Assembly (NCBI GenBank): GCA_032372955.1
Contig: GCA_032372955.1_4725.1
Source: Escherichia coli
Lineage (GTDB): Bacteria; Pseudomonadota; Gammaproteobacteria; Enterobacterales; Enterobacteriaceae
Length of the DNA: 64,000 nucleotides
Reading direction: 5' to 3' (one strand)
The number at the start of each line of letters is the position of its first letter. Within the stretch, counting starts at the first letter, position 1. Both the position numbers and the translations under genes were made by a program. The notes under the pieces were generated by a model that saw nothing but the letters and a program-made list of their open reading frames with translations, was not told the DNA's origin and ran no database searches. Below are positions 43,903 to 60,014 of the stretch, in pieces.

Positions 43903-43934
43903 CCCTCTCCCAACCCGTAAGGGAAGGGAGAGGG
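43903..43934. terminator. hairpin CCCTCTCCC/GGGAGAGGG between convergent genes
   Basis: 9-bp perfect stem. Confidence 0.45.
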
Positions 43935-43951: not shown

Positions 43952-46093
43952 TCAGAACGGTCGTTCTGTGCGTTTCCATAACAGCCCTGATGCTATCCTG
44001 CCAGGCATGGTGTCAGACAACCAGCTAGCAAAATTACCTTTGCTCCAGAAACTATCGATATCAGCCATGGTTTTATGCATGCGACGACTTAAATCAGGAA
44101 TCATGTAAACTTGTTCCGTAAGTGTCAATGCCGATAATACAGCAAGATAGTTGTTGAGCGGAGTATCGTCAGCAAGAAGATCGCTTAAGAAGCCACGAGG
44201 ATCCAATTTTGCGATCGATGCGGCCGTCGTTGTGATCGGCATTGCGACGATGGACGACAGGTCATAAACACTGAAGCTGACGTCGATACCCAACGGTAAT
44301 CGCTCGCGTGTTGATGGCACGTTCCCAACATGACGCGTCACAGTGATGTTATCGATAAGACCCATTTTAATCTGGACTTTACCGGGAATATAACACTCAC
44401 ACATGAATGGCATCCCGTAGGACGATTTACCGGTAGCCTGAGGCAAACCACCTGCGAGGATCGCTAAAAGAGGTACCATGAGGTTCGTAAAGATCGACCA
44501 GCGGTCCCCACTCCAGGAACGCAATTCCATCGTCAGATCGGCACGCGGTAGACTTACTGACGACCCAGAATAGAATTTCGGAATGTCTGCGAAGCCGGAA
44601 CCCATGAAGGCACCAAAAATACCATCCAGACCCATTCCGGAAATAGCACCATTAACGAGATCGGAACCGGCTTTGATGGCTTCGTCCAGTACAGCCCAAC
44701 CTGTATTACCACCGGAGAGGGTGAAACGACGTTCGATGTTCGCTTGCGCGCGGCTGTTCATCGTCTGTGCGATAGAACTTTCTGAAGCACTGTTTGAAAA
44801 CGTTTCGGTTACACTGGTGACAGAATCGACTCGAAAACTGATAAACTGAGCACCGTCAGCCAATTCAGCATCCATCAGATCAAGAAACGTAGCTTCTTCG
44901 GCCGCGTTCGTTTGACCGATTCCTTTGCTCTGTACGTTCGCGCCTCCAGCCGTGGATGCCGCTGTTGAAGCTTGTGTTGTCCCCGACGTTGAATTACCGA
45001 CATTGGCTGTTGTACCCTGACTCTGTGTTGACGTACCGCCGTCGGAGGTAGCCGCTGAGACATTGAAGTTGGCATCGGCATCTTTATTGGTGTACGAGGC
45101 CCTTCCGAATAAAAGGTCGTCCATCGTTTGTTTATTATCACCAGCTGTCGCACTGTAAACAGCAGACTTCTGTGTGTCGGCGAGATACTGCGTTAGCGTA
45201 CGACCGGTTACATCCGATGGAAACGCTCCGCTATCAAGTCGTTTATCAAGATCGTTCCAGAACTCCTCGTAAGACGAGTAATCGTTTTCCATCATGGATT
45301 GAATACGGCGTACCCATGCGTTTTGTATACGCTGACGACGTGTTGCAATCTGGTAGATATCGATCCCACCACCTTTCTTATAAATCCCCGGTAGCGTCTT
45401 AGAGGCGTAGTTGATGAATTCTTCAACGTTCTGACCACCGATTGAATATTGGTGGAGTACGGTACCCCCTTCTTCCACGTATCCTTTATCTTTACCAGCA
45501 CCGGCGATAAGACCCATGTTTATCGCTGTTTGGTTTACCAGCGTCTGGAAAGACGCCCAATACACGTGCATGGTTGGTACTTGATAGTAATATTGACTGG
45601 TAGGCTTACCCAGGAAATATCGACCAATACGTCCAACCATATACAAGTAAGGTAGAGGTGTGAGGTAAGAAAGAACGGTGGTATACGCTTTGGCTGCGTA
45701 ATAAAGAATACCGGGATCGCGACCGGTTTTAACCGTTACGGCGACATCGGCGTCGTAGAAATCGGTAAAGAAGATACTTGCGCCTGTAAAGCGAGGTTTA
45801 CCGAATCGTAAGGTAACGACTTCTTTAAAGCTGTTGATGCTTTCACTATAGCCTCGGCCCATGCCCGTTGATCCCGGCATAACCGCACGTCGCCGTTCTT
45901 TGATGTCGGCAAATTTCGTATATTGCGGTGGTGGGTTAAGCACCCAGTTCCCACCTAAGGTGGTATCATCGACGTTATCGTAGGAATACGGTGTATGTCT
46001 CGCTTTAATCATGTCGGCACTCAGCGTGCTGCTATCGCCTGGTAATAAAAACGCTTGTTTGGTAATTAGGGCGTTTTGAACAAGAATACCCAT
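43952..46093 (-). CDS. hypothetical large protein, probably virion-associated (Thr/Ser/Gly-rich low-complexity segment)
   Basis: 713-aa ORF immediately downstream of the giant gene on the same strand. Confidence 0.5.
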   Translation of the reverse strand: MGILVQNALITKQAFLLPGDSSTLSADMIKARHTPYSYDNVDDTTLGGNWVLNPPPQYTKFADIKERRRAVMPGSTGMGRGYSESINSFKEVVTLRFGKPRFTGASIFFTDFYDADVAVTVKTGRDPGILYYAAKAYTTVLSYLTPLPYLYMVGRIGRYFLGKPTSQYYYQVPTMHVYWASFQTLVNQTAINMGLIAGAGKDKGYVEEGGTVLHQYSIGGQNVEEFINYASKTLPGIYKKGGGIDIYQIATRRQRIQNAWVRRIQSMMENDYSSYEEFWNDLDKRLDSGAFPSDVTGRTLTQYLADTQKSAVYSATAGDNKQTMDDLLFGRASYTNKDADANFNVSAATSDGGTSTQSQGTTANVGNSTSGTTQASTAASTAGGANVQSKGIGQTNAAEEATFLDLMDAELADGAQFISFRVDSVTSVTETFSNSASESSIAQTMNSRAQANIERRFTLSGGNTGWAVLDEAIKAGSDLVNGAISGMGLDGIFGAFMGSGFADIPKFYSGSSVSLPRADLTMELRSWSGDRWSIFTNLMVPLLAILAGGLPQATGKSSYGMPFMCECYIPGKVQIKMGLIDNITVTRHVGNVPSTRERLPLGIDVSFSVYDLSSIVAMPITTTAASIAKLDPRGFLSDLLADDTPLNNYLAVLSALTLTEQVYMIPDLSRRMHKTMADIDSFWSKGNFASWLSDTMPGRIASGLLWKRTERPF

Positions 46094-46111: not shown

Positions 46112-46132
46112 AGGGCGGGAATCTCCCGCCCT
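46112..46132 (-). terminator. GC hairpin AGGGCGGGA-ATC-TCCCGCCCT between the two large minus-strand genes
   Basis: 9-bp stem; weak U-tract. Confidence 0.35.
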
Positions 46133-46142
46133 TAACTAATGA

Positions 46143-49100
46143 CTACTGTGCGTACCTTGTCCGTGTTGGAGAGATTCCTTGCGGACGATTAGGTAGTGAC
46201 ATCGTCTGTTGTTGAGAAGGACCTGCAGAACCCTTACCGATAGAAGAACCCTTAACGGCTTGGATTAATTCCGAAATAAGTTCATTCGTTCTACCGGTGT
46301 TCTTTTCGATGTTCTGCTGTGTGGTCAGCTGCTGTCGGAGAATTTCACCTGCGCTACCGTAGAAGTTCTCACTTGCAACCGATGTTTGTGTCGCAGACTG
46401 CGCAACCTGTGCAGGCGTATTCGGAACCGATATCCCTCGATTTGCACCCGGGTTTGACGGCAAATCGCTAGGTGCTGGAGTTGATGTCGGTTGTCCTGCC
46501 GCGGCTTTTGCTGTTTCGAAACTTCCGGGCGTTGGTGATGCTTCTCCAGGTGCTGGGGCCGTCCCGGCAGCCGCAGACGGTTTAGATTCAGGGATAGTAG
46601 AAGATACCGGGGCTTGCGGATCGTTGCTTACAGCAGGTGTTCCGTTTGCCTCTTGTGCTGCTTCGTTCTTCACCTGTTCGGCGGTGGTCGGTCCTTCAGC
46701 TTGATCGTCTGATGTTGATCCCGATAACTCGTCCATCATTTTCTTCAGGGTGCCATTCTTAGCCGCCTGAATCCAATAAGCAGAACGTTGTTCAACATCA
46801 CGTAATCCGTTAAAACCACCGTTAACCAGATAACGAACTTGGCGCACATCACCCCGTTTTGCGGGATCGCGTAACACGTTACCTCGGTTGAGCCACCATG
46901 CAACACTACCTTCCGCCGCACCTTCCGGCGTTTCCAGGTATGTCGGATCGCTGACAAGATCCTTGTTCAAGGTCTTGGACAGACGAGCGTAGTTAGCTTT
47001 ACCGGTAACCTGAATGAAGCCACGTCCTAAATACTTCGCCCCGTCTCCTTTCTGTGTGTTTCCTAGATCTTTACGATTACCATACACACGTTCGAATACC
47101 GCTTCCGGCCCCATGCTGATCGTCTGTGCGGCATCCTGCACATCACGGAATTTGTAAGGGAAGACCTGTTTAAGACGCTCTGGTGTCTTATAGTTCCCCT
47201 CACGTACGTGAGTGTAGTTCCCCGATTCATGTTCGATGTTCGCAAGGAACATCGCCATTTCCATTGGATCGGTAATGCCGCGTTTTACAGCGGATTTAAC
47301 AAGCGCACGACGTCCAGCTTCAGGACCTGGTCCCATTGCAGGTTTCTGTAAGCCCATGTTAGGCAATCCAGTAAGATCGCCGGTTGACCCTAATCCCGCA
47401 TTGGAAGTAGCCGAAGCAGTAAAGCTGCTTGCACCTACCCTATTCCCATTGGGGTTGTAATTCGCTTCGGCGTTACTCATCCCACCGGTAATGCGTGATT
47501 TCTTCTGCCAGACACCGTCTTTCTTCTCGTACCCAGCCTGCTTCATCATCAGCTCTTGGATCTTCGATAATTTATCGGTATCCTCTTGCGATGCTTCCGC
47601 GTTCTTCTCACGAACCTTCTCTTTATCCGCATATTCTTTTAACAGATCGAGCTGGCTCTTTGTTGAACTGCTGGTGGTGTTAGCTTCAGTACCGGAGAAA
47701 CCACAACTATTCCAGGACCATACAGGCTGCAGTGTACCTTTCTCATCACGGTATTGCGTTGCGACAAGTGCTTCACCGATTTCCCAACGTTGGCTGTCTT
47801 TCAGGTTCTGTACCACGTCGGACAGAAGTCCTTGACCGCCCATGTCGCTAACGTGTTGGTAATAGGTTAAAAAGACGGGCAGGAAACGGTTATTCATCCA
47901 AGCAAACCAGATATCCTGATCCCGCTTGCTGTTAACGTCCCGTCCGAACTTCGTCGCGAATTTCTTGTAGAGCGCGACAAGATCGCCACCGTATTTAACA
48001 CCTTTACCTTCAGCGACAACGCCAGGTTCTACAGCGTCTTCGAGTTCCATCAGCACTTTTATCTGACTTAGCAACGGAACCTTAATACCGTACGCACGAA
48101 CACGGAGACTGGTGAGTTCATCGATGTATCCACCGGCAACCCATTTTCTACCACGACGGTCTACGCTTTCAATAACCGCGGTCGCGTCAAGCTTCTGTCG
48201 TCCTTTAGCGCCAGCGCTGTTGTAACGTTTATCGTTAAAACGTAACGACGCTTTCTGACCGCGTAATGCGTTAGGCGCAACGGATTTACGTTGTGTGTCA
48301 GACATCCGTGACCAATCAGCAATAGCCTCATCATGAGAGTATTGCTTAATCTGATTCTGGTACTCTTTCTTGATGGCTTCGAGTTGTTTCAGCATCAAGG
48401 TTTTGACGTCTTGACCAGCAATATAACGCGTCGCACCAGAAGAACCCAACGGGTTAGCTTCGACGTAATACGGACCATCAGGACTATCGGAAGGCCAGAT
48501 AAACGCTTCCGACCATTTCACTTTGTTCTCACCGTTCGGATATTTATCCATTTCCATGTATTTCTTCTCGTCCGGCATATGCTCTTTCCAGAGTTTGTAC
48601 GCACGAGCGAAAACAGGAATAAAACGATGCAGATACCAGCGTTTCCATTCGTTCATTCGGTCGGAATCTTCCAGGGACAATTCCCAGATTTCGAGAATCT
48701 TTTCAGAATCCGCTTTCGGATCGAATCCGATGGTATCCCCGGTCATGACCACATGGTCGGTGAGGTATGTTTCTGTCGCAAGCAGCTTCTTATTGAAGTC
48801 TTTATCGTCCCCTTTTGCACCGTATGCAATAAGACGGAGCTTCTGCATCGGGTCAGGCTTCTCAGCGAAATGCTGATAGATCTTCCATCCAGCATAAGCA
48901 GCCAACGCACCACCTGCAATAGCAAGCCCAACAGGTGAGATAAGGAATGCACCTAATCCCGATAACCCACCAACAGCGTTCAATGCGGCCCCGCCCGCCA
49001 TTAACGCACCACGTCCTAACCATCCTGCTGCACTTAGTCCTCCCTTGACTAGCGCGCCGGTTCCACTAATGAGACCCTTGCCTAACAACCCGGTTAACGA

Positions 49101-52100
49101 TGCACCGCCGCTTAACACCGCCCCAAGACCGCCTAGAATTTTTCCAAGCGGACTCGCCATGAGTCGTTTACCTAATGCGGTATCGCCGAGCATATCGAAA
49201 AGGCTTCCGAGTAATCCCCGTTTCTTCTCCTTTTCTTCTCCTTTATTGGAATCTTTGCCGGTGTCGTCCTTACCGTTTTCCTTGGCTGCACGCTTACGTT
49301 TCAGGTCTTCCAACGATCCTTCTCGAACACCATCGCCATTCCAATCGCGGTAATCCTTATCGCCACCCGGCATACGCTGGTCAAGAAGCTGGTAAATAGC
49401 ATCGAGGCGATCTACCATGCTCGACGTTGTTCCCACCAGTAATGCGTCAGGTGATTGGAAATTTAATCCCATCCGTCGTAGACCGTTAACGGTTTTACCT
49501 GGAAGGGCTTTAAGGATGTCCTTTGTCTTACGTAGCAGCGTTAACGGTAACGTAAAAGCTTTTACGCCGAAGTTGATGAGCTTTTCTTTTAAACGACGAA
49601 TCGCTTTACCGTATTTATCGACAAGTCCTTTCTGCATGTCGGCAAGCGTAAGTACGACGTTACCTTGTGCATCAACAACATCACCATCGATGTCTTCAAG
49701 ATTTTTGATGACTTGTCCATCAGAGCGACGGAAATACCCGCCAGCTGCTAACACCATGGACAACAGACGAGGCGTTGATTCTCCCTTGACGTAAACGTCG
49801 GGTGTTTTGTCAAGCTGTTTGTAGATCTCGACCGCACCGCGTTTTAACATCCGTGGCAGACTTAATACCGTCGTGATTCCATTAAGACCTTCACGTGCCC
49901 ACGCCTTAAGTCCTGAATTCTCAAAGGCACGACCAGCGCGAGTGACCAACCCTTTCTCGATATCCTCGTTGCTGATTACGATGTTTCCATCCGCATCAAC
50001 GAGTGGGCCTTTGATATCCTTCATCCGTTTTACGGCTTTTCCTGTCGCTTCGTCGAAGTATAACCCCTGACGAAGTTTGGCAGCCAGTATGCGTGGTTGG
50101 GATTCCCCTTTAACGTAAATGTCAAACGGAACCTGATCAACCTTGGATAATGCGCCGAACACAAAACGGTTGAAATTGATAATGCGTCGGCCGGAATTTA
50201 CCAAACTACCCAACGTGCGTTCTGCACCCCAGCGTGCGCCTTTAACACCCAAACGTGCGGTATTTTTAATTCCTTTCCAGAGGAGATTACGGCCACCTTT
50301 AAAGAGGTTGCGTGCACCGAGTTTTTGTTTGGCACGATCGATAAATGAAATGGGTGCTGTACCTTCAGGTACATCTTCACCATCCAGTGAAACGTTATTA
50401 GACCAGTCTTTCTCAGAAATGGCTTTCAGCAACGCAAGCATTTCAGTACGTTGTTCGGATGCTTCAGATAACGCTTCGAGATAAAGCTCTTGCCACGCTC
50501 GATTCTGTTCTTCAAGCGATGTGGTGATAACACCCGTGTCGTTCCACCATTTATCATAGCCGATGTTTTCATCAACGGTTACTGTTCCAACAGCCTTGCG
50601 ATCGATGTTCGGCAGACCCGCATTTTGGACGTCATCAACTGATGGTTTTGCGTCACGATAACCTAGCGCCAGCGCTCTTGTTTCCTGAGCGGTTAATCGC
50701 GTATTAACATCACTACGTTCAGCGTACTCCGGTCGGTCGATGTATCGATCGATTTCAGAGAAATACCGATCGTGATTAACCGAGTAGCTTCCGTCGCTAT
50801 TTCTCGTTACGATACCGATACGTTCCAGATATTGGACGTCACCAGTACGTTTCAGTAGGTTAAGGTTACGCTGGATATCCGGTTGTAACGATTTCAGATT
50901 TCCGTAGCGAAGATCCGCTCGGTTACGTTCCGTGTAATATTGCCCGCGGTTTCCAATGACCTGATGACGTTCGCCCTTATCGTTGACATCATCACGAATA
51001 CCGTAACGGTCACGAAAGTACGTGGAAAGTTCCTTAATAGCGTCGCGGTCAATACTACGATCGAAGTTGCTTTCATCCGTAAAACGAGCCGGGTCGAATG
51101 CGATGTTTGCGTCGCTATCTCGTGCCAGCTGCTTAGCCAGTGCCTTCCTGGCTTTTTCCGATAATTGTTTATCGGGATCGACGACCGAGATAACCTCATT
51201 GAAACGGCTGGCGTAATAACCAAATGAACGTTTGTTAAACAGGGTGTCGTTGACGCTTTGTTCGCGCGTGCGCTGAGCCACGAATTGCCCGCTGATGCCG
51301 TCATAGACCTCGTAGTCGGGATCGCTGTTTCCCGTGCGGATGCCTTCACTGCTTTTCAGAATGCGAGCAAGAAAACCAGGAATAACTTCATTGATGCTGC
51401 GGTAAGTTAAACCGTCGAAAGACGTCTGCTCCGCCAATGTTTCAGCGGTGTCGTTCATCACACGGAAGTTACGTCCGCTGTCCATGTTGAACGCCCAACG
51501 CCCTGCGCCGCGTAACAATTGCTTGTAAAACGGATCGTTAAGATTGAATTCGTTTTTACGAATATCTTCCTGGAGCAGTTTACCGAGATTACGCGTCGTG
51601 TAAGCGGCAGCCTCACCACCTTGATCCACGGCTTTTAACGCGCTAGCGAATTTAGCGTTGGGGTGACGTTTTGCTAAATCGCGTAACGCCATCCTGCCTT
51701 TATTAGCCATCCATGGTGCGACAGTTGAGCCAATGAACTGACCCAACATCTTTCCTTGCATTTCCTTAATATCGCCTTCTGACCCCATCCCATCCATCAT
51801 GGACATCGAGTCACGTGCTTCGTTTAAACCGTATAACGCATCGTTTGCGCCAGACACGACGCCTTTTAAAGCACCTAATGCGTTGGTGGCAAGGTTCTTC
51901 TTAACATCGGCAAAGAAACGGTTCTCGAAAGAACTCATCGCATCTAACGCGTTACCAAAGAAACGTTGGTACGCGCTACGGCGGAATTCTTCCGACATTT
52001 TTGCTTTAGCTGCATCAGGTAAAGCCGTATTCTTCTGGATGTTTTGTAATAAACCGATATAGACTTCGGCTAACTTTTTATGCTGATCAAAACTTGCACG

Positions 52101-52808
52101 TTGAATCGCTAAGGAACGATATTTCAGTTCCAGGCTTTTACGCATGTAGCGCGCGGCGAATTCATTGTTGAAACCAACCATCTTGGCGACGCCTTCTTGC
52201 ATCGCACTCATTTGTTTGTTGGTTACAGCGTACCGTTTGTCAGCGATATCGTCACGGATACTCTCTTTCGCTTGCTGCTCAGCAAACTGATCCGCGTTTT
52301 GGTTTGCTGATTCGCCTAATGCCTCGGCAACCTTGCGGGCGATCTCATCGTCCCCCGCGCTCGCCATGCGTTGACGAAGGGTTTCTTCAGCATGTTTACG
52401 TTCGTCTTCTTCCTTGGCTTCTCGCTCCCACTGCTCGAGAATTTTCTTCGAGAAATCGGGCATGCTCGCGCGGTATTTCTTGGTCAGTTGTGCAGCTAAC
52501 CGTTTTGAGCTTTGGACCTTAGGAAGAACGTCACGAACGGCTTCATTGTATAGTTCCTTCGTGGATCCGACGGCGGAATCGATAAGATCCATACCGTCGC
52601 TGTAGCCCTTAGGCAATGCGTTTCTGGCGATCTCCTTCATTCTTTCGTAGGAAGTAAGATCTTCAGCAGCACCTTTAACCGCGCCTATCGCAAAGCGTGT
52701 TATCGGTTTACGATCGTCTTTGGGTTCGTTAAAATCGAGATCCAGGGAGAAGTCATCATCCCAGTTATCCCAATTATCATCACCCTCAACACGGGTTTTA
52801 TCTACCAT
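46143..52808 (-). CDS. giant virion-type protein (2221 aa) with glycine-rich hydrophobic segment and embedded lysozyme/muramidase-like domain
   Basis: GGAGG RBS before ATG 52808; EHESGNY and GRGFIQVTG lysozyme-like motifs encoded around 46800..47290; Gly-rich TM-like tract; Pro/Ala/Ser/Thr-rich C-terminus. Confidence 0.7.
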   Translation of the reverse strand: MVDKTRVEGDDNWDNWDDDFSLDLDFNEPKDDRKPITRFAIGAVKGAAEDLTSYERMKEIARNALPKGYSDGMDLIDSAVGSTKELYNEAVRDVLPKVQSSKRLAAQLTKKYRASMPDFSKKILEQWEREAKEEDERKHAEETLRQRMASAGDDEIARKVAEALGESANQNADQFAEQQAKESIRDDIADKRYAVTNKQMSAMQEGVAKMVGFNNEFAARYMRKSLELKYRSLAIQRASFDQHKKLAEVYIGLLQNIQKNTALPDAAKAKMSEEFRRSAYQRFFGNALDAMSSFENRFFADVKKNLATNALGALKGVVSGANDALYGLNEARDSMSMMDGMGSEGDIKEMQGKMLGQFIGSTVAPWMANKGRMALRDLAKRHPNAKFASALKAVDQGGEAAAYTTRNLGKLLQEDIRKNEFNLNDPFYKQLLRGAGRWAFNMDSGRNFRVMNDTAETLAEQTSFDGLTYRSINEVIPGFLARILKSSEGIRTGNSDPDYEVYDGISGQFVAQRTREQSVNDTLFNKRSFGYYASRFNEVISVVDPDKQLSEKARKALAKQLARDSDANIAFDPARFTDESNFDRSIDRDAIKELSTYFRDRYGIRDDVNDKGERHQVIGNRGQYYTERNRADLRYGNLKSLQPDIQRNLNLLKRTGDVQYLERIGIVTRNSDGSYSVNHDRYFSEIDRYIDRPEYAERSDVNTRLTAQETRALALGYRDAKPSVDDVQNAGLPNIDRKAVGTVTVDENIGYDKWWNDTGVITTSLEEQNRAWQELYLEALSEASEQRTEMLALLKAISEKDWSNNVSLDGEDVPEGTAPISFIDRAKQKLGARNLFKGGRNLLWKGIKNTARLGVKGARWGAERTLGSLVNSGRRIINFNRFVFGALSKVDQVPFDIYVKGESQPRILAAKLRQGLYFDEATGKAVKRMKDIKGPLVDADGNIVISNEDIEKGLVTRAGRAFENSGLKAWAREGLNGITTVLSLPRMLKRGAVEIYKQLDKTPDVYVKGESTPRLLSMVLAAGGYFRRSDGQVIKNLEDIDGDVVDAQGNVVLTLADMQKGLVDKYGKAIRRLKEKLINFGVKAFTLPLTLLRKTKDILKALPGKTVNGLRRMGLNFQSPDALLVGTTSSMVDRLDAIYQLLDQRMPGGDKDYRDWNGDGVREGSLEDLKRKRAAKENGKDDTGKDSNKGEEKEKKRGLLGSLFDMLGDTALGKRLMASPLGKILGGLGAVLSGGASLTGLLGKGLISGTGALVKGGLSAAGWLGRGALMAGGAALNAVGGLSGLGAFLISPVGLAIAGGALAAYAGWKIYQHFAEKPDPMQKLRLIAYGAKGDDKDFNKKLLATETYLTDHVVMTGDTIGFDPKADSEKILEIWELSLEDSDRMNEWKRWYLHRFIPVFARAYKLWKEHMPDEKKYMEMDKYPNGENKVKWSEAFIWPSDSPDGPYYVEANPLGSSGATRYIAGQDVKTLMLKQLEAIKKEYQNQIKQYSHDEAIADWSRMSDTQRKSVAPNALRGQKASLRFNDKRYNSAGAKGRQKLDATAVIESVDRRGRKWVAGGYIDELTSLRVRAYGIKVPLLSQIKVLMELEDAVEPGVVAEGKGVKYGGDLVALYKKFATKFGRDVNSKRDQDIWFAWMNNRFLPVFLTYYQHVSDMGGQGLLSDVVQNLKDSQRWEIGEALVATQYRDEKGTLQPVWSWNSCGFSGTEANTTSSSTKSQLDLLKEYADKEKVREKNAEASQEDTDKLSKIQELMMKQAGYEKKDGVWQKKSRITGGMSNAEANYNPNGNRVGASSFTASATSNAGLGSTGDLTGLPNMGLQKPAMGPGPEAGRRALVKSAVKRGITDPMEMAMFLANIEHESGNYTHVREGNYKTPERLKQVFPYKFRDVQDAAQTISMGPEAVFERVYGNRKDLGNTQKGDGAKYLGRGFIQVTGKANYARLSKTLNKDLVSDPTYLETPEGAAEGSVAWWLNRGNVLRDPAKRGDVRQVRYLVNGGFNGLRDVEQRSAYWIQAAKNGTLKKMMDELSGSTSDDQAEGPTTAEQVKNEAAQEANGTPAVSNDPQAPVSSTIPESKPSAAAGTAPAPGEASPTPGSFETAKAAAGQPTSTPAPSDLPSNPGANRGISVPNTPAQVAQSATQTSVASENFYGSAGEILRQQLTTQQNIEKNTGRTNELISELIQAVKGSSIGKGSAGPSQQQTMSLPNRPQGISPTRTRYAQ

Positions 52809-53053
52809 GTATACCTCCAGTTCGATACGTTCCCATGTTACGTTGGAACGTGATGCACGAAGTTTACCTTCGGCATTGATAATGTTGAAGCGTAACTTCA
52901 CACATCGCCCGCTTGATTTTATCAAGCAGGTACGTAACCTAATAACTTCCTCGCCTCAAGCAAGGAAGCGATGGGTGACGCCATCACCCATTACGTCTCT
53001 CGTGTGTTCAGATGATACCGCCGCAGCCGGTGGTGGTAAAGAGGAGTGTCTCC

Positions 53054-54520
53054 ATGGCTAAAGTCAGAGAGCCGTTTAATATTAGCATTTTGCGCCTCGA
53101 TAAACAGCAGTTACGTTTTCTCCCCAAGATCACGAGCATGAGCATCCGTGACCCAAGCACCGGTAATTTCCACGATGATGGTTTCTATTCTTACACCATC
53201 TTTGGTAGTGCGGGTAGTGAAGATCGAGACCGTCGATTTGCGGTGATCGAATGCAAGGTTGAAATCCTACACCCCGTCATTTACGACCGCCTCATTCGAC
53301 TAAAACACCTCTATGGCGATATCATGTCGGGGAAGGCGTACGCTCGGTGGGATCCTGAACAACGCGACTTCGTTGCGTCTGATGCGTTAACAGGACAAAC
53401 AGGATACGGGTTCTTTGCACAACACGTCGCGGATATCAAGTTCGTTTCAACGGGTTCAGCTCAACGAGAGCTACGAATTAAAGTTGTCGAAGAGAACATG
53501 TTCAAAGCGATGACCCGTCACTTACTGGTATTGCCTGCGGGCTTACGCGAAATAGAAGTAAAAGAAGGCGGGTATGAAAGCGAGCAAGAAATCACGGAGT
53601 TGTATCGTCGTTTCCTTGCAATTTCTAACACCGTCCCTGATGGATTAAAAGATTATTCTGATCCCGTTTACGACGGTCAACGTTGGAGCTTACAGAGAAC
53701 ATTTAACGATATCTACGCTTTGTTGTTGGATATGTTCCAAGGTAAGAAAGGGATCTTCCAAGGTAAGTTCGGTTCACGTCGCGTTTGGAACTCAACCCGT
53801 AACGTTATTTCGGCAATTAACCCCACAACAGAGGTACTAGGGTCGCCCAACCAGCCTTCCTGTACCGCAGTTCAGTTAGGGTTATACCAGATGAGCAAAG
53901 CCGCCCTACCCGTGACGCAACATGCGTTACGTACGGGGATTTTGCAGGAAATATTTGTCCGTGATGTTACAGAAGTTGAACTTATCGATACCGAAACGAT
54001 GGAACGTGAACGTGTCACGCTTGATCCAGACACCATCGATGACTTTACAACATGGGACGGAATAGAACGTTTATTGAACACCTTAAGCGATCCTGGTGTA
54101 CGTAACGAACCCATCATGGTTAATGGGCGTTATCTTTGTCTCGTCTATGTGAACAATGATTCGTTTCGGTTATTCCGTGGTATGAGTGAATTACCCCCGG
54201 AGATGCTGAATAAGCCTGGTGCGGATGTTCACCCCATCACGTACACCGAGCTTATCTATATTGCCGGATATAAGTACTGGAATAACCTGGCTGCGATGGT
54301 AACACGTTATCCGGTATCGGGTATGCAATCCGTTATCCCGTTAACCTGTTACGCGCGTACAACCGTTGCAGCAAAACCGAAAACCGAACTGGATAGTAAC
54401 TGGGAACCAATAACGGATGAACGATTTATCGCATGGGAATACCCCGACTGGTTACCTAATGCCTCGTTCGTAGAAACTACTATTGTTCCTGCGCCATACC
54501 TCGCCGGTTTAGGCGGTGAT
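53054..54520 (+). CDS. RNA polymerase beta-prime-like subunit, N-terminal module, exon 1 (predicted 3' boundary)
   Basis: AAGAGGAG RBS; beta-prime-like segments ELYRRFL and GKKGIFQGKFGSRRVWNSTRNVI; boundary placed after U54520 by homology and frame. Confidence 0.6.
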
Positions 54521-55002
54521 AAGTCCTTGAAAAATAAAGACTTTTTTCAATGGAAGTTGTCCGGTATTCCCGAAAGGGAGTGCTTGAAAAACCTACGAAT
54601 TGCTGGGAACCCCTAAAGCTCAACGACCCATGAGGTGCCGAAAGGCAGAAACAACAGTTGAGATGCACTACCTCCCACGGAGGCTTAGGCTGAAAGAAAA
54701 GCCGCGTAAGCGGTGCTAAGGTGCGCGATAATGGGCAATCAGCAGCCTGGTTGTTGCGTAGTAATACGGCATTCTTGAAAACAAGAATGTGAAACAACGC
54801 AGGTTCAACGACTAAGGGATTTACCACCCTGTAGAGGACAAGCGTCTTCGAAGTGTAGGTTACCGTAACAGGTGTTGCTGAAGTATTCTTCAGCGAAGCT
54901 GACGGTTTGATATAGTCTCCTCTTGCATGAAAGTGCAAGCAGCCTGTGATGTACGTATCCATGCAGGCGGTCTCAGCGTAGCGACCTGAGGCGAAGACAA
55001 GG
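54521..55002 (+). ncRNA. group I intron (ORF-less), intron 1, boundaries predicted
   Basis: Q-like AATCAGCAGC 54737-54746, R GTTCAACGACTAAGGG 54793-54808, S GATATAGTCT 54909-54918, P8-like hairpin CTTGCA/TGCAAG; flanked by two halves of one conserved protein motif. Confidence 0.7.
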
Positions 55003-55185: not shown

Positions 55186-58100
55186 ATGGCAAAACTTAAA
55201 TACCTTGATTACTACCGACAGTTTGGTGTCAGACGCTACCAAGAGCTACTATCACCAAGATTACGTTTAGTGCAGCTACTGCAGCTGCCGCGTTATGCTG
55301 TCTATCATTACACCGCAACGGATCCTTCATTGATAGGTCCTCCAGAAAACGAATACATGCTGAGCAAAGAAAGTGCTCAACTATGGATTTCGTTTGCTGA
55401 TGATCTCGCAACCAAACAGGGTGCACCCCGACGTGATCAACGATTCCAACTCCCACGAGCGAAATTGGATTATCGTGCATCACATCGTCGTTTTCGTTTG
55501 GTTACCGATCTAAGCGCGGTGGAGAAAAACATCAACGCTCAGATCGTTGCTAACTACGCGCATCTTAACCACATGTACATTTATCGTCCAACGCTCACCC
55601 GTTGGTATGATGAATGGTTCAACGTACGTAAAACAATTTGGTCGAAAGCCAACGAAATCGCACAGCAAAGCGATCGTCAACACTTTTTGTTGTTCCGTAT
55701 ACCGTCAAAATTGCCGAAGATTTCGTTGATGCGTACCACGCAACAGGCACCGACCCGTAACAACCTCATGAATTTCGCCACGCCGGAGGAGCTGTCGTTC
55801 TTTGACTTCTTCCGCTGGTTGGGCGTCGATCGTGAGAACAGCACGATGGCTTCGTTAGACAGGGCCATGCTGGATAAGCTTAACGTCGTATTTACAGACG
55901 GTGTGTACTTCTTTACGCTGAATCTCGGCCTGCTGGAGGAATGGCGTACCGGACTTGTGAAGGAAGGGGAAGAACTCGATAAAACGACGCTTGAAACCTT
56001 CCAACGACGTTGGATGATGGCGGTAACACGTCTGTGGTCGCAGAGTGCGAATGAAGAAGAACAGAAACAAGAAGAGGAACAGGTTCTTCGTCAAGAGCGA
56101 GATATTCTTGCAGCCAGCCCGGATGCGGAGTACGATGATCGTGACGTCGTGCTTCCTAACGGTGAGGATCTGGCTACCGTTCTCGATCCCGATGAGTTAG
56201 AAGCGGAGTTGGTCGGTGGGTCGGATGAAGACGATGATGCTGATGCATGGAACGCCATCGTAGAACGCTCGTTCGAAGATGTCCGTGAAGTACCTGGGGT
56301 AGAAGTACAACCGGATTTCCAACCTGATGAAGATCAGGACATTACCGACGATCTCTTCGAAGTCGTTACCGACGATACCGAAGAAGAAAAGGTTGATGTC
56401 TTTGACGCGGCAACGTTACCAAAAACGCATGGCGAATATATTCAGTCGCTATCGGATGCGGTGTTGGTACGCGCGAGTGATCTGGCGGATGCGGGTCAGT
56501 TAAGCGGTGTCCAGTATAAAGCAGCGATGCGTAACGCCGACGCCATTCACGAAATCGAAGCACCCGACGGTTCTGGATTAACACTTGCTGAGTATGTCGA
56601 AGTTAAACCAAAAGCCGCAAAATTAGCTCCCGCAAAGGTTATGCCGGAAGCGGATGTTATCGTCGACAAGAGCTTATGTAAATCGACGCTCGCGGTGTGG
56701 GATAAACATTACGTCGAACACGTAATGCAAAAGGACATCGCAGCTGCCGTTGTTGCGGTACAGCAGGCGGGTTACCCTGTTACGGGATATAAAGTTGAAG
56801 ATGTTGTTGACGTGATGGGGGACTATCAAGTCATCACGATTAAACTGGCCCCTGTAGGCGGTGTCCCGACCACGTTCCCGGTGATGTTGCCGAAGGTTCG
56901 TAAGGACGGCATTTATGTCGTTAACGGTATCAAGTACCGGATGCGTAAACAACGCGTCGATAAACCTATTAGAAAGGTATCGTCATCTGAAGTCGCATTG
57001 AGTACCGCCTACGGTAAGGTGTTTGTTAAACGTTCAGAGCGCGTCGTTAATAACGCCGGTCGTTGGTTAACACGCCAACTTACGGCGATGTATTACGATA
57101 AGTCCTCGCCCTTAACAACGTTAAAACGCGGTAACGTCTTTGATCCGGCTGTCAAAGTTCCGTATTACTTCGCTGTGCTTGCACGCAACTATACCCAAAT
57201 CCAATTTGCTGATTGGGATATACGTCTCGATATAAAAACATTGCCGGAGTTCATCGGGGAAGATCGGTTCAACGAACAGTTAGCCGAAGGACTCCTGACG
57301 TTCGCGCGTAACACGTTGGGTGAATTCTTAGCAATCGATAAACGCAATCAGCTCTATATCTGTCAGTCGGGACAAACACCAACACCTGTAGGGACGTTCC
57401 CTGATTTCTTCGGCATTAATGCGGCTAAGATGCCGATCGAAGCCGCCGATCTTGAATTCATGGGTGTACGTATTCCGGTCGGTGTTGTTCTAAGTTATCT
57501 GGGTGGGCTTACCCCGTTATTAGAACATCTTAAAGCGAACTATCGTACGGTACCTCGCGGCTCTCGTATGGGGTTAGCACCCGATGAATTCGCAGTGAGC
57601 TTTGACGACGAAAGTCTGATCTTCAGTAAAGACGATCGCATGACGACGTTGTTGCTGGGTGGGTTTAACGAATACCGTAACTACATTGGTTACGCTCGCG
57701 GTGCTTTCGACAATCGAGATATCTATTTTAACGTTGTTGATGGTGCTGGACTTAAGGTTCGCCATTTGCGCGAACTTGAACTCATGGAGCGTCTTTTCAT
57801 CGATCCGGTAAGCCGTACGTTGTTGCAGAACATGGGAGAACCTACCGATTTCGCCATGTTGTTACTGCGTGCTGTTGAACTGCTTCTGGATGATTGGGCA
57901 CCTAACACGAACGATGTGAACTACCAACGTTTTAAAACGTACGATAAGTTCGCTGAATTGGTGTATAAGGACCTGGTTGGCGCTATTCGTCAGAATGAGA
58001 ACAGCAGTCAAGGGAACCGCCAGAAAATCTCAATCAGTCCGGTAAGCGTCTGGAACCAAATTCTCGACGATAGCGCTTCCATCGTGATCGATGAAACCAA

Positions 58101-58335
58101 CCCGATGCTGGATATCAAGCAGGGTGAAGAAGCAACGATGACCGGTATCGGGGGTCGTTCAAAGACATCGCTTCGACGCGCACGTGATCGCGAATACGAC
58201 AAGTCGGACATTGGTGTTGTATCCGAAGGTACGAAGGATAGTGGGGACGTAGGTATTTCTGCTTACCTCGCACCTAACGCAAACATTGTGTCTGTATACG
58301 GTGAAACGAAACCTTACGACGAGAAAACGGATGGT
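55186..58335 (+). CDS. RNA polymerase beta-like subunit, N-terminal module, exon 1 (3' boundary approximate)
   Basis: ATG 3 nt after the beta-prime stop; C-terminal part DETNPM...TGIGGRS...RRARDRE...SEGTKDSGDVGISAYLAPNANIVSVYGETKPYDEKTDG parallels E. coli beta DQNNPL...LGPGGLTRERAGFEVRDVH...[36 protein letters not shown]. Confidence 0.55.
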
Positions 58336-58874
58336 AGCTCGTCAATAATGAGTACATCAGCACTTGCAGTACCTGCTGCTGATAGAGATGATTAACGCTT
58401 TTAATAGCAGGGTCCGTCTATGTGGCGACATGTAGATGAGATTCACTGAATTGCGAAGACATCCGTCGCTGTTATCGACCAAAACGGATTCTGAAAAGAA
58501 AGACGGTACGGTATAAAAACAGATAATAGCTTAAGGACAATCCGCAGCCAAGTACCTAAGGATCGCTGTGAAGCGTTCTAAGGTAAAGGTTCAACGACTA
58601 AGGGATTCATCCCCCTGTACCCCTCGAGTGAGGCATTCTCCTTGGATAAGAGAATGGTGCTGGATGCGCTGGGAAGAAGTGAACTCTCGTTGAGGTGCTG
58701 AAGAAGCACCGTTTGAAACGAGATGTGATATAGTCTGCTCTTGCGTGAGAGCGCAAGCGGGAGGTGGTGCGCCTATCATCGCCTCCGGGATAAGACTAAC
58801 GACCTTATCTGAACAATCTAATCTCAGTCTTATTTCGGTAACGGTATGTTAATACTGAATAAGAACTAAATTCG
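58336..58874 (+). ncRNA. group I intron (ORF-less), intron 2, boundaries approximate
   Basis: P-like AATTGCGAAG 58449-58458, Q AATCCGCAGC 58539-58548, R GTTCAACGACTAAGGG 58589-58604, S GATATAGTCT 58727-58736; homologous to intron 1 with a compensatory change in the P8-like stem. Confidence 0.7.
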
Positions 58875-60014
58875 CCCAAGAGATTGGTATTTATAGGTAT
58901 CCAACACAACCGCATGATTGCTGCTGAAGGTTACGATGTACAGCCGTGGCGTACGGGTGGTGAGACTGTTATCGCGCATCGTGTTGGTAAGCTCTTCGCA
59001 GCAGCTGCCCAAGGCGATGGTGTTGTGAAGAAGGTCACTAAAACTGCGCTGACGATACAGTACGACGACCCAGAGTTAGGGGAAGAGGTTTTCCAGCTCG
59101 GTACGATAATCGGGAAAGGACCAGGTAAGTATTATCCTCACGATCTCATTACCGATTATAAAGTCGGGGATCGCGTTAAGGATCAGGATGTGGTGGTTTT
59201 CCACCGCCTTTATTTTAAACGCGATTGGTGGAACCCAGGTCAGGTTGTTTGGCGCGCAGGTGTTCTGTCTCTTGTCGGTATTCTGGATATTCCAGAGACC
59301 CACGAGGACAGCTCGTATATCTTCGACAATCTTGCTGATCGTCTCGTAACACCATCGATTAAGAGTCGTACGCTTATCGTTGACGCTCATCTCAACATTC
59401 GTGGTCTCGTGAAAATCGGTGATCATGTTGAACCGCGAACGATTCTTGCAACACTGGAAGAACCGATTGCAACCGATCTGAGTGATGAGAGTCAGGAAGC
59501 CGTTGAAGCATTACGTCGTATGAGTCAGTATAACCCACGTGCTGATGTTCATGGTGAAGTTGTACAGATCGATGTACTGTACCGCGCTCAGATTGAAGAC
59601 ATGAGTGAAACCATGGCAGCGCTCGTCGGTGAGGCAGATAAAGCACGAGCTAAACGCGTCAAGGAACTGAAACTCAACGAAGCAACAACGGGGCGTATCA
59701 ATAACAGTAACGTGAGAATAGACGGTAATCCGTTAGGCGAGAACCAGATCGCCATCCGTATTTTCATGCGTTACGACCTTGGTGCGGGGATGGGTGATAA
59801 AGGTACCTTCGCAGCTCAAGCGAAATCCGTTGTCTCTTCCGTGGGTCATGGTGTGAACAAAACCGAAGACGGGCACACCCTTGATGCTATCTTCAGTGGC
59901 ACCAGTATCGCTAACCGTATCATCGGTTCACCGGAAGTGGTTGGGACTGTGAATCTTGGTCTCCTCTACGCAACGGAACGAGCTGTTGATATTTACTTTA
60001 ACGACGCTAAATAA
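58875..60014 (+). CDS. RNA polymerase beta-like subunit, exon 2 (5' boundary approximate)
   Basis: open frame extends upstream of the track start (TTG at 58884) to 58863; IGIQHNRMIAAEGYDV parallels E. coli beta IHYLSAIEEGNYV directly after the TDG motif. Confidence 0.55.
   Translation, partial: PKRLVFIGIQHNRMIAAEGYDVQPWRTGGETVIAHRVGKLFAAAAQGDGVVKKVTKTALTIQYDDPELGEEVFQLGTIIGKGPGKYYPHDLITDYKVGDRVKDQDVVVFHRLYFKRDWWNPGQVVWRAGVLSLVGILDIPETHEDSSYIFDNLADRLVTPSIKSRTLIVDAHLNIRGLVKIGDHVEPRTILATLEEPIATDLSDESQEAVEALRRMSQYNPRADVHGEVVQIDVLYRAQIEDMSETMAALVGEADKARAKRVKELKLNEATTGRINNSNVRIDGNPLGENQIAIRIFMRYDLGAGMGDKGTFAAQAKSVVSSVGHGVNKTEDGHTLDAIFSGTSIANRIIGSPEVVGTVNLGLLYATERAVDIYFNDAK

What the first reader, a model, noticed from the sequence alone, without database searches (positions are those of the whole stretch)
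46143..52808. 2221-aa protein combining a glycine-rich membrane-like segment with an internal lysozyme domain
Seen: the largest gene in the window (minus strand, strong GGAGG RBS) encodes an acidic N-terminal region, coiled-coil-like stretches, a long Gly-rich hydrophobic tract, and near the C-terminus a lysozyme-like block (FLANIEHESGNYTHVREG...YLGRGFIQVTGKANY) followed by a Pro/Ala/Ser/Thr-rich tail. Inference: an ejected inner-body or tail-lysin protein that degrades peptidoglycan during genome delivery.
Basis: partly seen in the sequence, partly recalled or inferred. Interest (0 to 1): 0.55.

Follow-up and report, generated by a model that had tools for sequence, protein, structure and literature searches.

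The report
Giant tail protein carrying a lysozyme
This 2221-residue gene is the Goslar-type counterpart of phage phiKZ's giant tail protein gp181, most likely the tail's internal "tape measure", and it carries a working-looking cell-wall-cutting enzyme of a different family from phiKZ's; it is a well-supported but fairly ordinary member of a known class.

Summary

The window comes from a close relative of Escherichia phage Goslar (96.6% nt identity). The gene is Goslar gp204 and the orthologue of phiKZ gp181 and SPN3US gp239.

The lysozyme block is an endolysin-type GH19 domain. Eight of nine published active-site residues are identical, including both catalytic glutamates, and the ninth is a conservative change.

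Goslar virion mass spectrometry detects the protein at about 3-8 copies. Its neighbour encodes the hexameric ring that links tube and hub. The SPN3US orthologue is missing from tailless heads.

About 100 relatives share the same body but carry different wall-degrading modules (SLT in 57, GH19 in 9, also M23, CHAP and VanY).

The best reading is a tape-measure-type protein in the tail lumen that works like T5 pb2. It is expelled on contraction, the GH19 domain cuts peptidoglycan, and the hydrophobic tract enters a membrane.

The "inner body" alternative is not supported. Lumen location and enzyme activity remain untested. It is a new member of a known kind, of modest interest.

The parts
46143..52808 (-). 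Whole coding sequence, 2221 aa plus stop (245 kDa, pI 9.0). Orthologue of Goslar gp204 (Goslar_00232, YP_009820915.1), phiKZ gp181 and SPN3US gp239.
52814..52818 (-). GGAGG ribosome-binding site, 5 nt upstream of the ATG at 52808.
   Evidence: The start is supported by the N-termini of P0003, P0004 and P0005.
52710..52808 (-). Acidic, Asp/Trp-rich N-terminus (residues 1-33), predicted disordered, followed by the conserved KDDRKP motif.
51309..52706 (-). Long-helix body (residues ~35-500), 80% predicted helix including one 142-residue helix. This is the most conserved part of the family and contains the EVIPGFLARI...IRTG motif at 473-493.
50709..51311 (-). Compact mixed alpha/beta domain (residues ~500-700), pLDDT 80-93, with no match to any solved fold.
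49914..50147 (-). Repeat A copy 1 (residues ~888-965): small beta-rich unit with the 'D.YVKGE..PR...DI.G.V.D..GN.V....D..KGLV' signature.
   Evidence: score 183 against 27.5 +/- 5.3 for shuffles, z = 29.5.
49590..49820 (-). Repeat A copy 2 (residues ~997-1073).
49314..49346 (-). Conserved D-x-[DN]-G-D-G-x-R-x-G-S motif (residues 1155-1165), followed by a Lys/Glu-rich stretch.
   Evidence: consensus.
48873..49223 (-). Gly/Ala/Leu-rich hydrophobic tract (residues ~1196-1312): 28% Gly, Kyte-Doolittle maximum 1.91, 42-residue uncharged run. Candidate membrane-inserting segment.
   Evidence: It is a family trait: 63 of 85 anchored members reach KD >= 1.6 at the same position. AlphaFold2 confidence here is very low.
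48309..48881 (-). Module B copy 1 (residues ~1310-1500): confident helical domain with the signature LR..YG ... W..W...RF.PV.
   Evidence: z = 9.0; pLDDT 80-95. No match to a solved fold.
47499..48125 (-). Module B copy 2 (residues ~1562-1770).
46719..47351 (-). GH19 endolysin-type domain (residues ~1820-2030). Predicted active site: H1860, E1861, E1870, Y1909, Q1933, T1935, V1995, N1996, R2008.
46413..46715 (-). Pro/Ala/Ser/Thr-rich disordered linker (residues ~2032-2132). A peptide from this region was seen in Goslar virions.
46146..46415 (-). C-terminal long helix (residues ~2132-2187) and terminal basic motif, conserved across the family (consensus L..QL.VQ......L..I ... PV.M.R). Candidate hub-docking end.
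46113..46131 (-). GC-rich hairpin (GGGCGGGA / TCCCGCCC) in the 49-nt gap between this gene and the next.
   Evidence: centroid -17.8 kcal/mol, z = -2.9.
43952..46093 (-). Co-oriented downstream gene (713 aa). Orthologue of Goslar gp203 and phiKZ gp182, the hexameric ring between the tube initiator and the hub.
   Evidence: (E = 3e-59 to phiKZ gp182).

Best explanation
**What it is.** The gene encodes the giant tail-internal protein of a Goslar-like chimallivirus. It is the orthologue of phiKZ gp181 and SPN3US gp239.

**Proposed mechanism.**
1. A few copies, most likely three, are built into the tail.
2. The C-terminal helix is docked at the hub and spacer-ring end, and the long helical N-terminal body runs up the tube lumen.
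3. It therefore acts as a tape-measure or assembly-scaffold protein, but not as a simple 1.5 A-per-residue ruler.
4. On sheath contraction it is expelled ahead of the DNA.
5. The GH19 domain, predicted to be a muramidase, cuts the peptidoglycan locally.
6. The Gly/Ala-rich hydrophobic tract inserts into a host membrane and helps form the conduit, as proposed for T5 pb2.

**Shown:**
- orthology and synteny;
- the GH19 fold and an intact active site;
- virion presence and low copy number of the Goslar orthologue;
- tail association of the SPN3US orthologue;
- essentiality of phiKZ orf181.

**Inferred:** lumen location, orientation, trimer state, ejection, membrane insertion and enzymatic activity.
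For: **Orthology.**
- phrog_3201 matches residues 11-1174 at E = 1.5e-291.
- phiKZ gp181 aligns over residues 35-693 (E = 7e-45) and 887-1730 (E = 5e-37).
- SPN3US gp239 aligns over the N-terminal body and over the B modules.

**Synteny.** In all three phages the gene is followed by the gp182/gp203/gp238 ring gene and diverges from the virion RNA polymerase genes.

**Virion data.**
- Goslar Table S4 reports 34 peptides, 24.5% coverage and 3.4/5.1/8.0 estimated copies, annotated 'Tail protein'.
- These estimates are similar to those for hub and ring proteins known to be present at 3 or 6 copies.
- Peptides come from residues 393-986 and 2102-2124.

**Tail location.** SPN3US gp239 is absent from tailless, DNA-filled heads, and the authors call it the tape measure.

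**Not the spike.** The spike, hub and inner baseplate of Goslar and phiKZ are fully assigned to other proteins. That leaves the lumen or the unmodelled periphery.

**Fit in the lumen.** With a ~68 A lumen, as reported for phiKZ, three copies fill 13% and six copies fill 26% of the volume, so folded domains can fit.

**GH19 domain.**
- PDB sequence matches to GH19 endolysins have E = 1e-17 to 1e-23.
- The Foldseek top hits are all GH19.
- Eight of nine PaGH19Lys active-site residues are identical and one is conservative.

**Same order of parts as T5 pb2.** Helical body, then a ~46-residue hydrophobic stretch, then a muralytic domain, then a C-terminal helix docked as a trimer in the hub.

**Family conservation.** The hydrophobic tract and the C-terminal helix are conserved across the family.
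Against: - No structure shows the protein in the lumen. Neither the Goslar preprint nor the phiKZ atlas models or mentions it.
- The length does not fit a simple ruler. The tube of 46 x 39.16 A needs about 1200 residues at 1.5 A per residue, but the protein has 2221. phiKZ has a shorter tube (43 x 37.73 A) and a slightly longer protein.
- The N-terminal helices are predicted at low confidence.
- Pfam's GH19 model scores below its gathering threshold (18.1 against 25.5 bits), and NCBIfam gives nothing.
- No GH19-domain peptide was found in the part of the peptide list that is held, which is truncated and so uninformative.
- The hydrophobic tract is weaker in phiKZ gp181 itself (Kyte-Doolittle maximum 1.22).
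Confidence: 0.7

Rival explanations
1. It is a peripheral-baseplate or tail-fibre component, as the RefSeq and PHROG label 'tail fiber protein' says. It would sit outside the tube and present the lysozyme to the cell surface.
For: - RefSeq and phrog_3201 call it 'tail fiber protein'.
- Large parts of the peripheral baseplate of Goslar and phiKZ remain unmodelled.
- The copy number of 3-8 is compatible with six-fold fibres.
Against: - There is no fibre-like beta-structure and no receptor-binding or carbohydrate-binding domain. The models show long helices, helical modules and an enzyme.
- A membrane-grade hydrophobic tract is odd for an external fibre.
- A peptidoglycan hydrolase outside the outer membrane of E. 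coli could not reach its substrate.
- The gene is paired with the inner ring gene rather than with fibre genes.
- The SPN3US and phiKZ groups call it the tape measure.
Confidence: 0.1
2. It is the needle-like cell-puncturing device, analogous to T4 gp5. This is the older model for phiKZ gp181.
For: Reviews list gp181 as a 'needle-like cell-puncturing device, putative trimer', citing Briers 2008 and Fokine.
Against: - The spike, spike tip or cap, and hub of Goslar (gp13, gp48) and phiKZ (gp164, gp163.1, gp101) are now assigned at near-atomic resolution, with all density accounted for.
- No OB-fold or beta-helix appears in the models, and no spike protein appears among the fold matches.
Confidence: 0.03
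3. It is a head-packaged, ejected protein (inner body or pilot protein) that travels with the DNA.
For: - Chimalliviruses do eject many head proteins.
- The gene lies next to virion RNA polymerase genes, whose products are head-packaged.
Against: - The SPN3US orthologue is missing from tailless, DNA-filled heads.
- There is no PF12699 domain.
- The copy number is 3-8, against ~50-2150 for inner-body family proteins.
- The virion RNA polymerase genes are on the opposite strand, whereas the co-oriented neighbour is a tail ring protein.
Confidence: 0.05
4. It is a chitinase or a conventional endolysin acting from within at the end of infection, as the GenBank label 'putative chitinase' implies.
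For: GenBank annotates it 'putative chitinase' with COG3179. The weak Pfam hit is to 'Chitinase class I'.
Against: - The closest characterised relatives are endolysin-type GH19 enzymes.
- PaGH19Lys is a muramidase with no activity on chitin.
- The protein is a 245-kDa structural virion component.
- In relatives the same position holds SLT, M23, CHAP or VanY modules, all of which act on peptidoglycan.
Confidence: 0.02

Closest known systems
phiKZ gp181 (PHIKZ181, 2237 aa), the 'structural peptidoglycan hydrolase' and likely tape measure
   Same: - Homologous over residues 35-693 and 887-1730 at 24-25% identity, and nearly the same length.
- Same gene neighbourhood: a gp182-type ring gene downstream and virion RNA polymerase genes divergent upstream.
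- The muralytic module sits at the same place: gp181 residues 1880-2042 (from Briers 2008 as I recall the paper) against 1820-2030 here.
- Both are virion proteins.
   Different: - The lytic module is GH19 here. In phiKZ it is a lytic transglycosylase/lysozyme-type module, and SLT (PF01464) is the majority state in the family.
- The hydrophobic tract is stronger here (Kyte-Doolittle maximum 1.91 against 1.22).
- My motif patterns for repeat A and the DGDG motif do not match gp181.
SPN3US gp239, the 'tape measure protein' (2372 aa)
   Same: - Homologous N-terminal body and B modules, with the same synteny (gp238 matches the downstream gene at E = 2e-67).
- Experimentally tail-associated, being absent from tailless heads.
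   Different: Only ~24% identity over the aligned parts. I did not determine its lytic module, because the Pfam call failed on a frame error.
T5 pb2 (tape measure with fusogenic and muralytic activities)
   Same: - Same order of functional parts: helical lumen body, then a ~46-residue hydrophobic stretch compatible with two transmembrane helices, then a muralytic domain, then a C-terminal helix docked as a trimer in the hub cup.
- It is expelled on triggering.
   Different: - No sequence homology was detected.
- T5 is a siphophage, and pb2 is half the size with a metallopeptidase rather than a glycosidase.
- pb2 is cleaved between the hydrophobic stretch and the enzyme. No processing is known here, and two extra helical modules lie in between.
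GH19 endolysins: PaGH19Lys (PDB 9eoi), SPN1S endolysin (4ok7), KTN6 gp46 (8p8e); also the secreted effectors TfcB (7r6s) and TseP (8xcl)
   Same: - Same fold: Foldseek E = 8e-8 to 8e-6, 27-30% identity.
- Sequence E = 1e-16 to 1e-23.
- Catalytic Glu pair and active-site residues are conserved.
   Different: Those are ~200-340-residue soluble enzymes. Here the domain is embedded at residues 1820-2030 of a 2221-residue structural protein and would act from outside during entry.
T4 gp29 (myophage tape measure) and T4 gp5 (spike lysozyme)
   Same: - From general knowledge: in T4 the tape-measure gene 29 directly precedes the tube-initiator genes 48 and 54. This mirrors the pairing of this gene with the ring gene.
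- The Goslar hub/spike is described as T4-like.
   Different: T4 separates the two jobs: gp29 measures and gp5 carries the lysozyme on the spike. Here one protein appears to carry both, and the spike proteins of Goslar and phiKZ are other gene products.

Membership tests
phiKZ gp181-like giant tail proteins (phrog_3201) | Sequence homology across the N-terminal body | tested here: met
   phrog_3201 E = 1.5e-291 over residues 11-1174. blastp to gp181 gives E = 7e-45 and 5e-37. 99 relatives have E <= 1e-10.
phiKZ gp181-like giant tail proteins (phrog_3201) | Conserved neighbourhood: gp182-type ring gene immediately downstream on the same strand, virion RNA polymerase genes divergent upstream | tested here: met
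   E = 3e-59; E = 2e-67.
phiKZ gp181-like giant tail proteins (phrog_3201) | About 2000-3000 aa with a peptidoglycan-degrading module near, but not at, the C-terminus, followed by a linker and a conserved terminal helix | tested here: met
   The module here is GH19 rather than the majority SLT.
phiKZ gp181-like giant tail proteins (phrog_3201) | Structural component of the virion tail | not testable with these tools
   Not testable for this phage. It is shown for the 98.3%-identical Goslar protein by virion mass spectrometry and for SPN3US gp239 by tailless particles.
GH19 (endolysin subfamily) | Pfam PF00182 at or above the gathering score | tested here: not met
   18.1 bits against a cut-off of 25.5, with only 39 residues matched. 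NCBIfam gives no hit. The Pfam model is centred on chitinases.
GH19 (endolysin subfamily) | Significant sequence similarity to experimentally characterised GH19 endolysins | tested here: met
   9eoi E = 8.5e-23, 4ok7 E = 2.1e-17, 8p8e E = 4e-16. phrog_181 endolysin E = 4.2e-53.
GH19 (endolysin subfamily) | GH19 (lysozyme-superfamily) two-lobed helical fold | tested here: met
   AlphaFold2 pLDDT is 83-96 over residues 1820-2030. All Foldseek PDB hits with E <= 1e-3 are GH19.
GH19 (endolysin subfamily) | Catalytic Glu pair nine residues apart plus the conserved active-site residues (PaGH19Lys H50, E51, E60, Y103, Q127, T129, I187, N188, R197) | tested here: met
   The counterparts are H1860, E1861, E1870, Y1909, Q1933, T1935, V1995, N1996 and R2008. 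Eight are identical and I-to-V is conservative.
GH19 (endolysin subfamily) | Muramidase activity on peptidoglycan and none on chitin | not testable with these tools
   Shown only for the relative PaGH19Lys.
Tail tape measure proteins (functional class) | Length proportional to tail length (~1.5 A per residue) | tested here: not met
   The tube plus rings is 180-188 nm and needs 1201-1253 residues, but the protein has 2221. phiKZ has a shorter tube with a longer protein. It cannot be a simple ruler. Folded inserts could account for the excess.
Tail tape measure proteins (functional class) | Extended, largely alpha-helical body | tested here: inconclusive
   64% helix over residues 1-1200 and 80% over 1-500, with single helices up to 142 residues, but mean pLDDT is 56.
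Tail tape measure proteins (functional class) | Gene adjacent to hub or tube-initiator genes | tested here: met
   It is 49 nt upstream of the ring gene (gp203/gp182 orthologue), and a wedge gene (gp202) follows.
Tail tape measure proteins (functional class) | Three or six copies per virion, located in the tube lumen | not testable with these tools
   The copy estimate of 3.4-8.0 in Goslar is compatible. Location is unresolved in both published virion structures.
phiKZ-type inner-body proteins | PF12699 domain and high copy number in the head | tested here: not met
   No PF12699 hit. Copy number is 3-8, against ~50-2150 for that family in Goslar. The SPN3US orthologue is absent from heads.
T4 gp5-type spike lysozyme | OB-fold plus beta-helix spike forming the needle | tested here: not met
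   No such elements appear in the models or fold matches. The spike positions are occupied by other proteins.

The most novel reading that the evidence does not exclude
Beyond measuring the tail and cutting the wall, the expelled protein could be the phage factor that builds the trans-envelope conduit and seeds the inner-membrane-derived early-infection (EPI) vesicle peculiar to chimalliviruses. The conserved Gly/Ala hydrophobic tract and the two duplicated helical 'B' modules, which match no known fold, would do this work. The unusually wide tube (~68 A in phiKZ) would allow it to travel partly folded. Nothing here tests this. It is compatible with the conserved architecture and with the absence of any assigned role for about 1000 residues of the protein.
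Probability: 0.12. Interest if true: 0.7.

Novelty: new member of a known kind. Interest (0 to 1): 0.3.

Why it matters
- **Annotation.** The gene is mislabelled in public records as 'putative chitinase' (GenBank) and 'tail fiber protein' (RefSeq and PHROG). Correct assignment matters for annotating jumbo phages.
- **A gap in the structures.** The two recent whole-virion structures of chimalliviruses (Goslar, phiKZ) leave this 245-kDa protein unmodelled and undiscussed, although it is present in virions and essential in phiKZ. The domain map given here provides concrete targets for finding it in existing maps.
- **Entry mechanism.** The map also gives handles for testing how these phages cross the envelope before the EPI vesicle forms. 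The parts are a helical body, two internal duplications, a hydrophobic tract, an exchangeable lytic cassette and a conserved docking helix.
- **Enzyme engineering.** The repeated exchange of wall-degrading modules at one fixed position is a natural catalogue of virion-associated lysins, which is of interest for that field.

Tried and rejected
- **Glycine zipper.** The [GAS]xxxGxxx[GAS] motif occurs 4 times in the tract, against 6.4 +/- 2.3 in shuffles of the same composition. The tract is simply Gly/Ala/Leu-rich. Rejected.
- **N-terminal part as exact ruler.** In this phage residues 1-1200 match the ~1201 residues needed for the tube. In phiKZ the tract sits near residue 1300 although the tube is shorter (about 1080 residues needed), and only 64% of the region is predicted helical. 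I treat the match as coincidence.
- **Fold search of the N-terminal half.** Nothing was significant against PDB (best E = 0.26). The two B modules also gave no match, because every PDB hit of the C-terminal model was GH19.
- **NCBIfam.** No family matched.
- **Pfam.** Only a sub-threshold GH19 hit.
- **Self-BLAST.** It found no internal repeats. Direct local alignment with shuffle controls did find them.
- **The 93-nt upstream extension in the Goslar annotation.** It has 0 differences between the two phages, which is uninformative. Comparison with more distant relatives favours the shorter start.
- **Peptide coverage of the GH19 domain.** The held copy of Table S4 is truncated (peptides are sorted alphabetically and reach only about 'D'), so the absence of the three GH19 peptides I queried means little.
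- **Promoter and terminator scans.** The counts equalled chance.

Full report
**1.

The minus-strand ORF 46143..52808 encodes 2221 residues plus a stop. It is preceded by GGAGG 5 nt upstream of the ATG and is by far the largest ORF in the window. The frame stays open up to a TTG at 52925.

- The first 100 residues have a net charge of -9.
- Residues 1196-1312 are 28% Gly and 15% Ala. The Kyte-Doolittle 19-residue maximum is 1.91 and there is a 42-residue uncharged run.
- The lysozyme-like block lies at residues ~1820-2030.
- A Pro/Ala/Ser/Thr-rich stretch at 2032-2132 is predicted disordered.

**2. Where the window comes from.**

The gene is 96.6% identical in DNA and 98.3% identical in protein to Goslar_00232 of Escherichia phage vB_EcoM_Goslar, a nucleus-forming jumbo phage. 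GenBank calls the gene 'putative chitinase'. RefSeq calls it HOV27_gp204, 'tail fiber protein'. Between the two phages, 177 codons differ synonymously and 37 non-synonymously along the whole length. The entire protein, tail included, is therefore under purifying selection.

**3. Family.**

- phrog_3201 matches residues 11-1174 at E = 1.5e-291.
- phiKZ gp181 aligns over residues 35-693 and 887-1730 at 24-25% identity.
- SPN3US gp239 aligns over the N-terminal body and residues 1321-1724.

In all three phages the gene is followed on the same strand by the orthologue of phiKZ gp182, and it diverges from the virion RNA polymerase genes. The match of the downstream gene to gp182 has E = 3e-59. The phiKZ atlas describes gp182 as a hexameric 'spacer' ring between the tube initiator and the hub. 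The Goslar preprint describes gp203 as part of a two-layer tube-initiator complex.

**4. Anatomy.**

AlphaFold2 on family alignments gave the map below, combined with motif and repeat analysis.

| Residues | Feature | Evidence |
|---|---|---|
| 1-33 | Disordered acidic N-terminus | |
| 35-500 | Long helices, 80% helix, low confidence | |
| ~500-700 | Confident compact domain with no known fold | |
| 888-965 and 997-1073 | Two ~75-residue beta-rich repeats (repeat A) | alignment z = 29.5 against shuffles, |
| 1155-1165 | D-x-N-G-D-G motif | |
| 1196-1312 | Gly/Ala hydrophobic tract | |
| 1310-1500 and 1562-1770 | Two copies of a confident helical module (module B), no solved-fold match | z = 9.0, pLDDT 80-95; |
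| 1820-2030 | GH19 domain | |
| 2032-2132 | Disordered linker | |
| 2132-2187 | 55-residue C-terminal helix, then a basic terminal motif | |

The tract, the B modules and the terminal helix recur across the family. Of 85 anchored members, 63 have a segment with KD >= 1.6 at the same place, and the median longest uncharged run is 47 residues.

**5. The enzyme.**

Pfam's GH19 model hits only below threshold (18.1 against 25.5 bits), and NCBIfam gives nothing. Other evidence is decisive.
- phrog_181 'endolysin' scores E = 4e-53.
- Solved GH19 endolysins match at E = 1e-16 to 1e-23.
- The predicted domain (pLDDT 83-96) retrieves only GH19 structures. The first eight are GH19 endolysin-type lysins, among them the secreted effectors TfcB and TseP; chitinases follow.

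PaGH19Lys (PDB 9eoi) is a muramidase that does not cleave chitin. Its active site is H50, E51, E60, Y103, Q127, T129, I187, N188 and R197, and its E60Q variant is inactive. The counterparts here are H1860, E1861, E1870, Y1909, Q1933, T1935, V1995, N1996 and R2008. I therefore predict an active muramidase. 'Chitinase' is a misnomer.

**6. Is it in the virion, and where?**

The Goslar virion preprint (Basu et al. 2026) never mentions gp204 in its text and does not model it. Its Table S4, however, lists YP_009820915.1 with 34 peptides, 24.5% coverage and an estimated 3.4/5.1/8.0 copies per virion, noted as 'Tail protein'. Proteins of known copy number give similar estimates.

| Protein | Copies in the model | Median estimate |
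|---|---|---|
| gp48 | 3 | 4.7 |
| gp13 | 3 | 8.5 |
| gp62 | 6 | 3.9 |
| gp203 | 6 | 3.4 |

So three or six copies are both possible. Peptides held in the truncated table map to residues 393-406, 564-575, 719-738, 739-753, 771-787, 969-986 and 2102-2124. Both the body and the C-terminal tail are therefore present in particles.

Evidence from related phages points the same way.
- In SPN3US, tailless DNA-filled heads lack gp239, which the authors call the tape measure.
- The older idea that gp181 is the puncturing needle is superseded. The spike, tip or cap, hub and rings of both phages are assigned to other proteins, with all central density accounted for.
- The phiKZ atlas does not mention gp181 either.

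**7. Geometry.**

The Goslar tube has 46 layers with a rise of 39.16 A, about 180 nm, or about 188 nm with the two rings. At 1.5 A per residue this needs 1201-1253 residues, so the protein is 1.8 times too long for a simple helical ruler. phiKZ has a shorter tube (43 x 37.73 A) but a slightly longer protein, and its Gly/Ala tract lies further from the N-terminus. The simple-ruler test therefore fails.

The phiKZ lumen is about 68 A wide. At that width, three copies would fill 13% and six copies 26% of the lumen. Folded ~20-kDa domains can therefore be carried inside. I have no lumen figure for Goslar itself.

**8. Mechanism.**

T5 pb2 has the same order of parts:
- a helical body in the lumen;
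- a 46-residue hydrophobic stretch proposed to form a membrane channel;
- a muralytic domain released into the periplasm;
- a C-terminal helix held as a trimer in the hub cup.

By analogy, I propose the following sequence. This protein is anchored by its C-terminal helix at the hub and ring. It is expelled on contraction. The GH19 domain cuts the wall, and the tract inserts into a membrane. All of these steps are inference.

**9. Module exchange.**

I searched the large protein database with residues 1-1750 only. This returned 99 relatives of 1500-3014 residues.

| Lytic module | Members |
|---|---|
| SLT (PF01464) | 57 |
| GH19 (four by Pfam, plus the five Goslar-like proteins by local phmmer) | 9 |
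| VanY (always combined with another module) | 7 |
| CHAP | 6 |
| PF18013 | 4 |
| PF21277 | 4 |
| M23 | 3 |

In a neighbour-joining tree of the N-terminal body, GH19 carriers fall in at least five separate places. The tree has no support values, so this is indicative only. Each GH19 carrier lies beside SLT carriers, for example P0018 beside P0052, P0054 and P0062. The lytic domain behaves as an exchangeable cassette at a fixed position.

**10. Verdict.**

The 'inner body' half is not supported: there is no PF12699 domain, the copy number is low, and the SPN3US orthologue is absent from heads.

It is a new member of a known kind, namely a gp181-family giant tail protein with a GH19 module instead of an SLT module. 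What remains open is its place in the virion, what the ~1000 residues of unknown fold do, and whether it takes part in forming the early-infection vesicle.

Noticed in passing
window 54535..54939 and 58391..58757 (+ strand): Two Rfam group I introns (64.1 and 52.8 bits) interrupt the virion RNA polymerase gene block next to the target. The ORFs are 53012..54616, 55186..58395 and 58884..60014. Goslar's record has one annotated intron plus an extra 490-aa ORF (gp206, similar to phiKZ ORF179), and its block is about 1 kb longer. Intron and homing-element content therefore differs between two phages that are ~96% identical.
   Followed up: partly
window 46113..46131 (- strand) and about 43903..43934 (- strand): Perfect GC-rich hairpins lie directly after the stop codons of the target gene and of the downstream ring gene. 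The first is GGGCGGGA/TCCCGCCC, with centroid energy -17.8 kcal/mol and z = -2.9. The second is CCCTCTCCC/GGGAGAGGG. The first is followed by TCTTCTT and the next gene's GAGGA ribosome-binding site. They could be leaky terminators or RNA-stabilising structures. The consensus terminator scan missed both.
   Followed up: partly
window 52809..52925 (- strand): The start codon is annotated differently in Goslar (a GTG 93 nt upstream, giving 2252 aa). The 93 nt directly upstream of the ATG are identical between the two phages; the only two differences in the 117 nt between the TTG at 52925 and the ATG lie further upstream. More distant relatives start at the ATG at 52808.
   Followed up: yes
window 51330..51392 (- strand; residues 473-493): The most conserved stretch of the whole family is EVIPGFLARI......IRTG, with I476, P477, G478, L480, I483, R491, T492 and G493 nearly invariant. 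Its function is unknown.
   Followed up: no
window 49314..49346 (- strand; residues 1155-1165): A conserved D-x-[DN]-G-D-G-x-R-x-G-S-W motif sits just before the Lys/Glu-rich stretch and the hydrophobic tract. It resembles a calcium-binding DxDxDG loop. That resemblance is from memory and was not tested.
   Followed up: no
protein clusters P0001, P0018, P0052, P0054, P0062: The 99%-identical cluster P0001 holds 615 member sequences from assemblies of public sequencing runs, so Goslar-like phages are common in public data. Several family members are filed under bacterial names (Paraburkholderia, Caballeronia) on contigs of 143-492 kb, which are probably jumbo-phage genomes inside bacterial assemblies.
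   Followed up: no
Goslar RefSeq NC_048170.1 HOV27_gp204; GenBank MK327938.1 Goslar_00232: The public product names 'tail fiber protein' (propagated by RefSeq to the listed orthologues) and 'putative chitinase' both look wrong for this family. Some Serratia phage records already use 'tail lysozyme' or 'peptidoglycan hydrolase'.
   Followed up: yes
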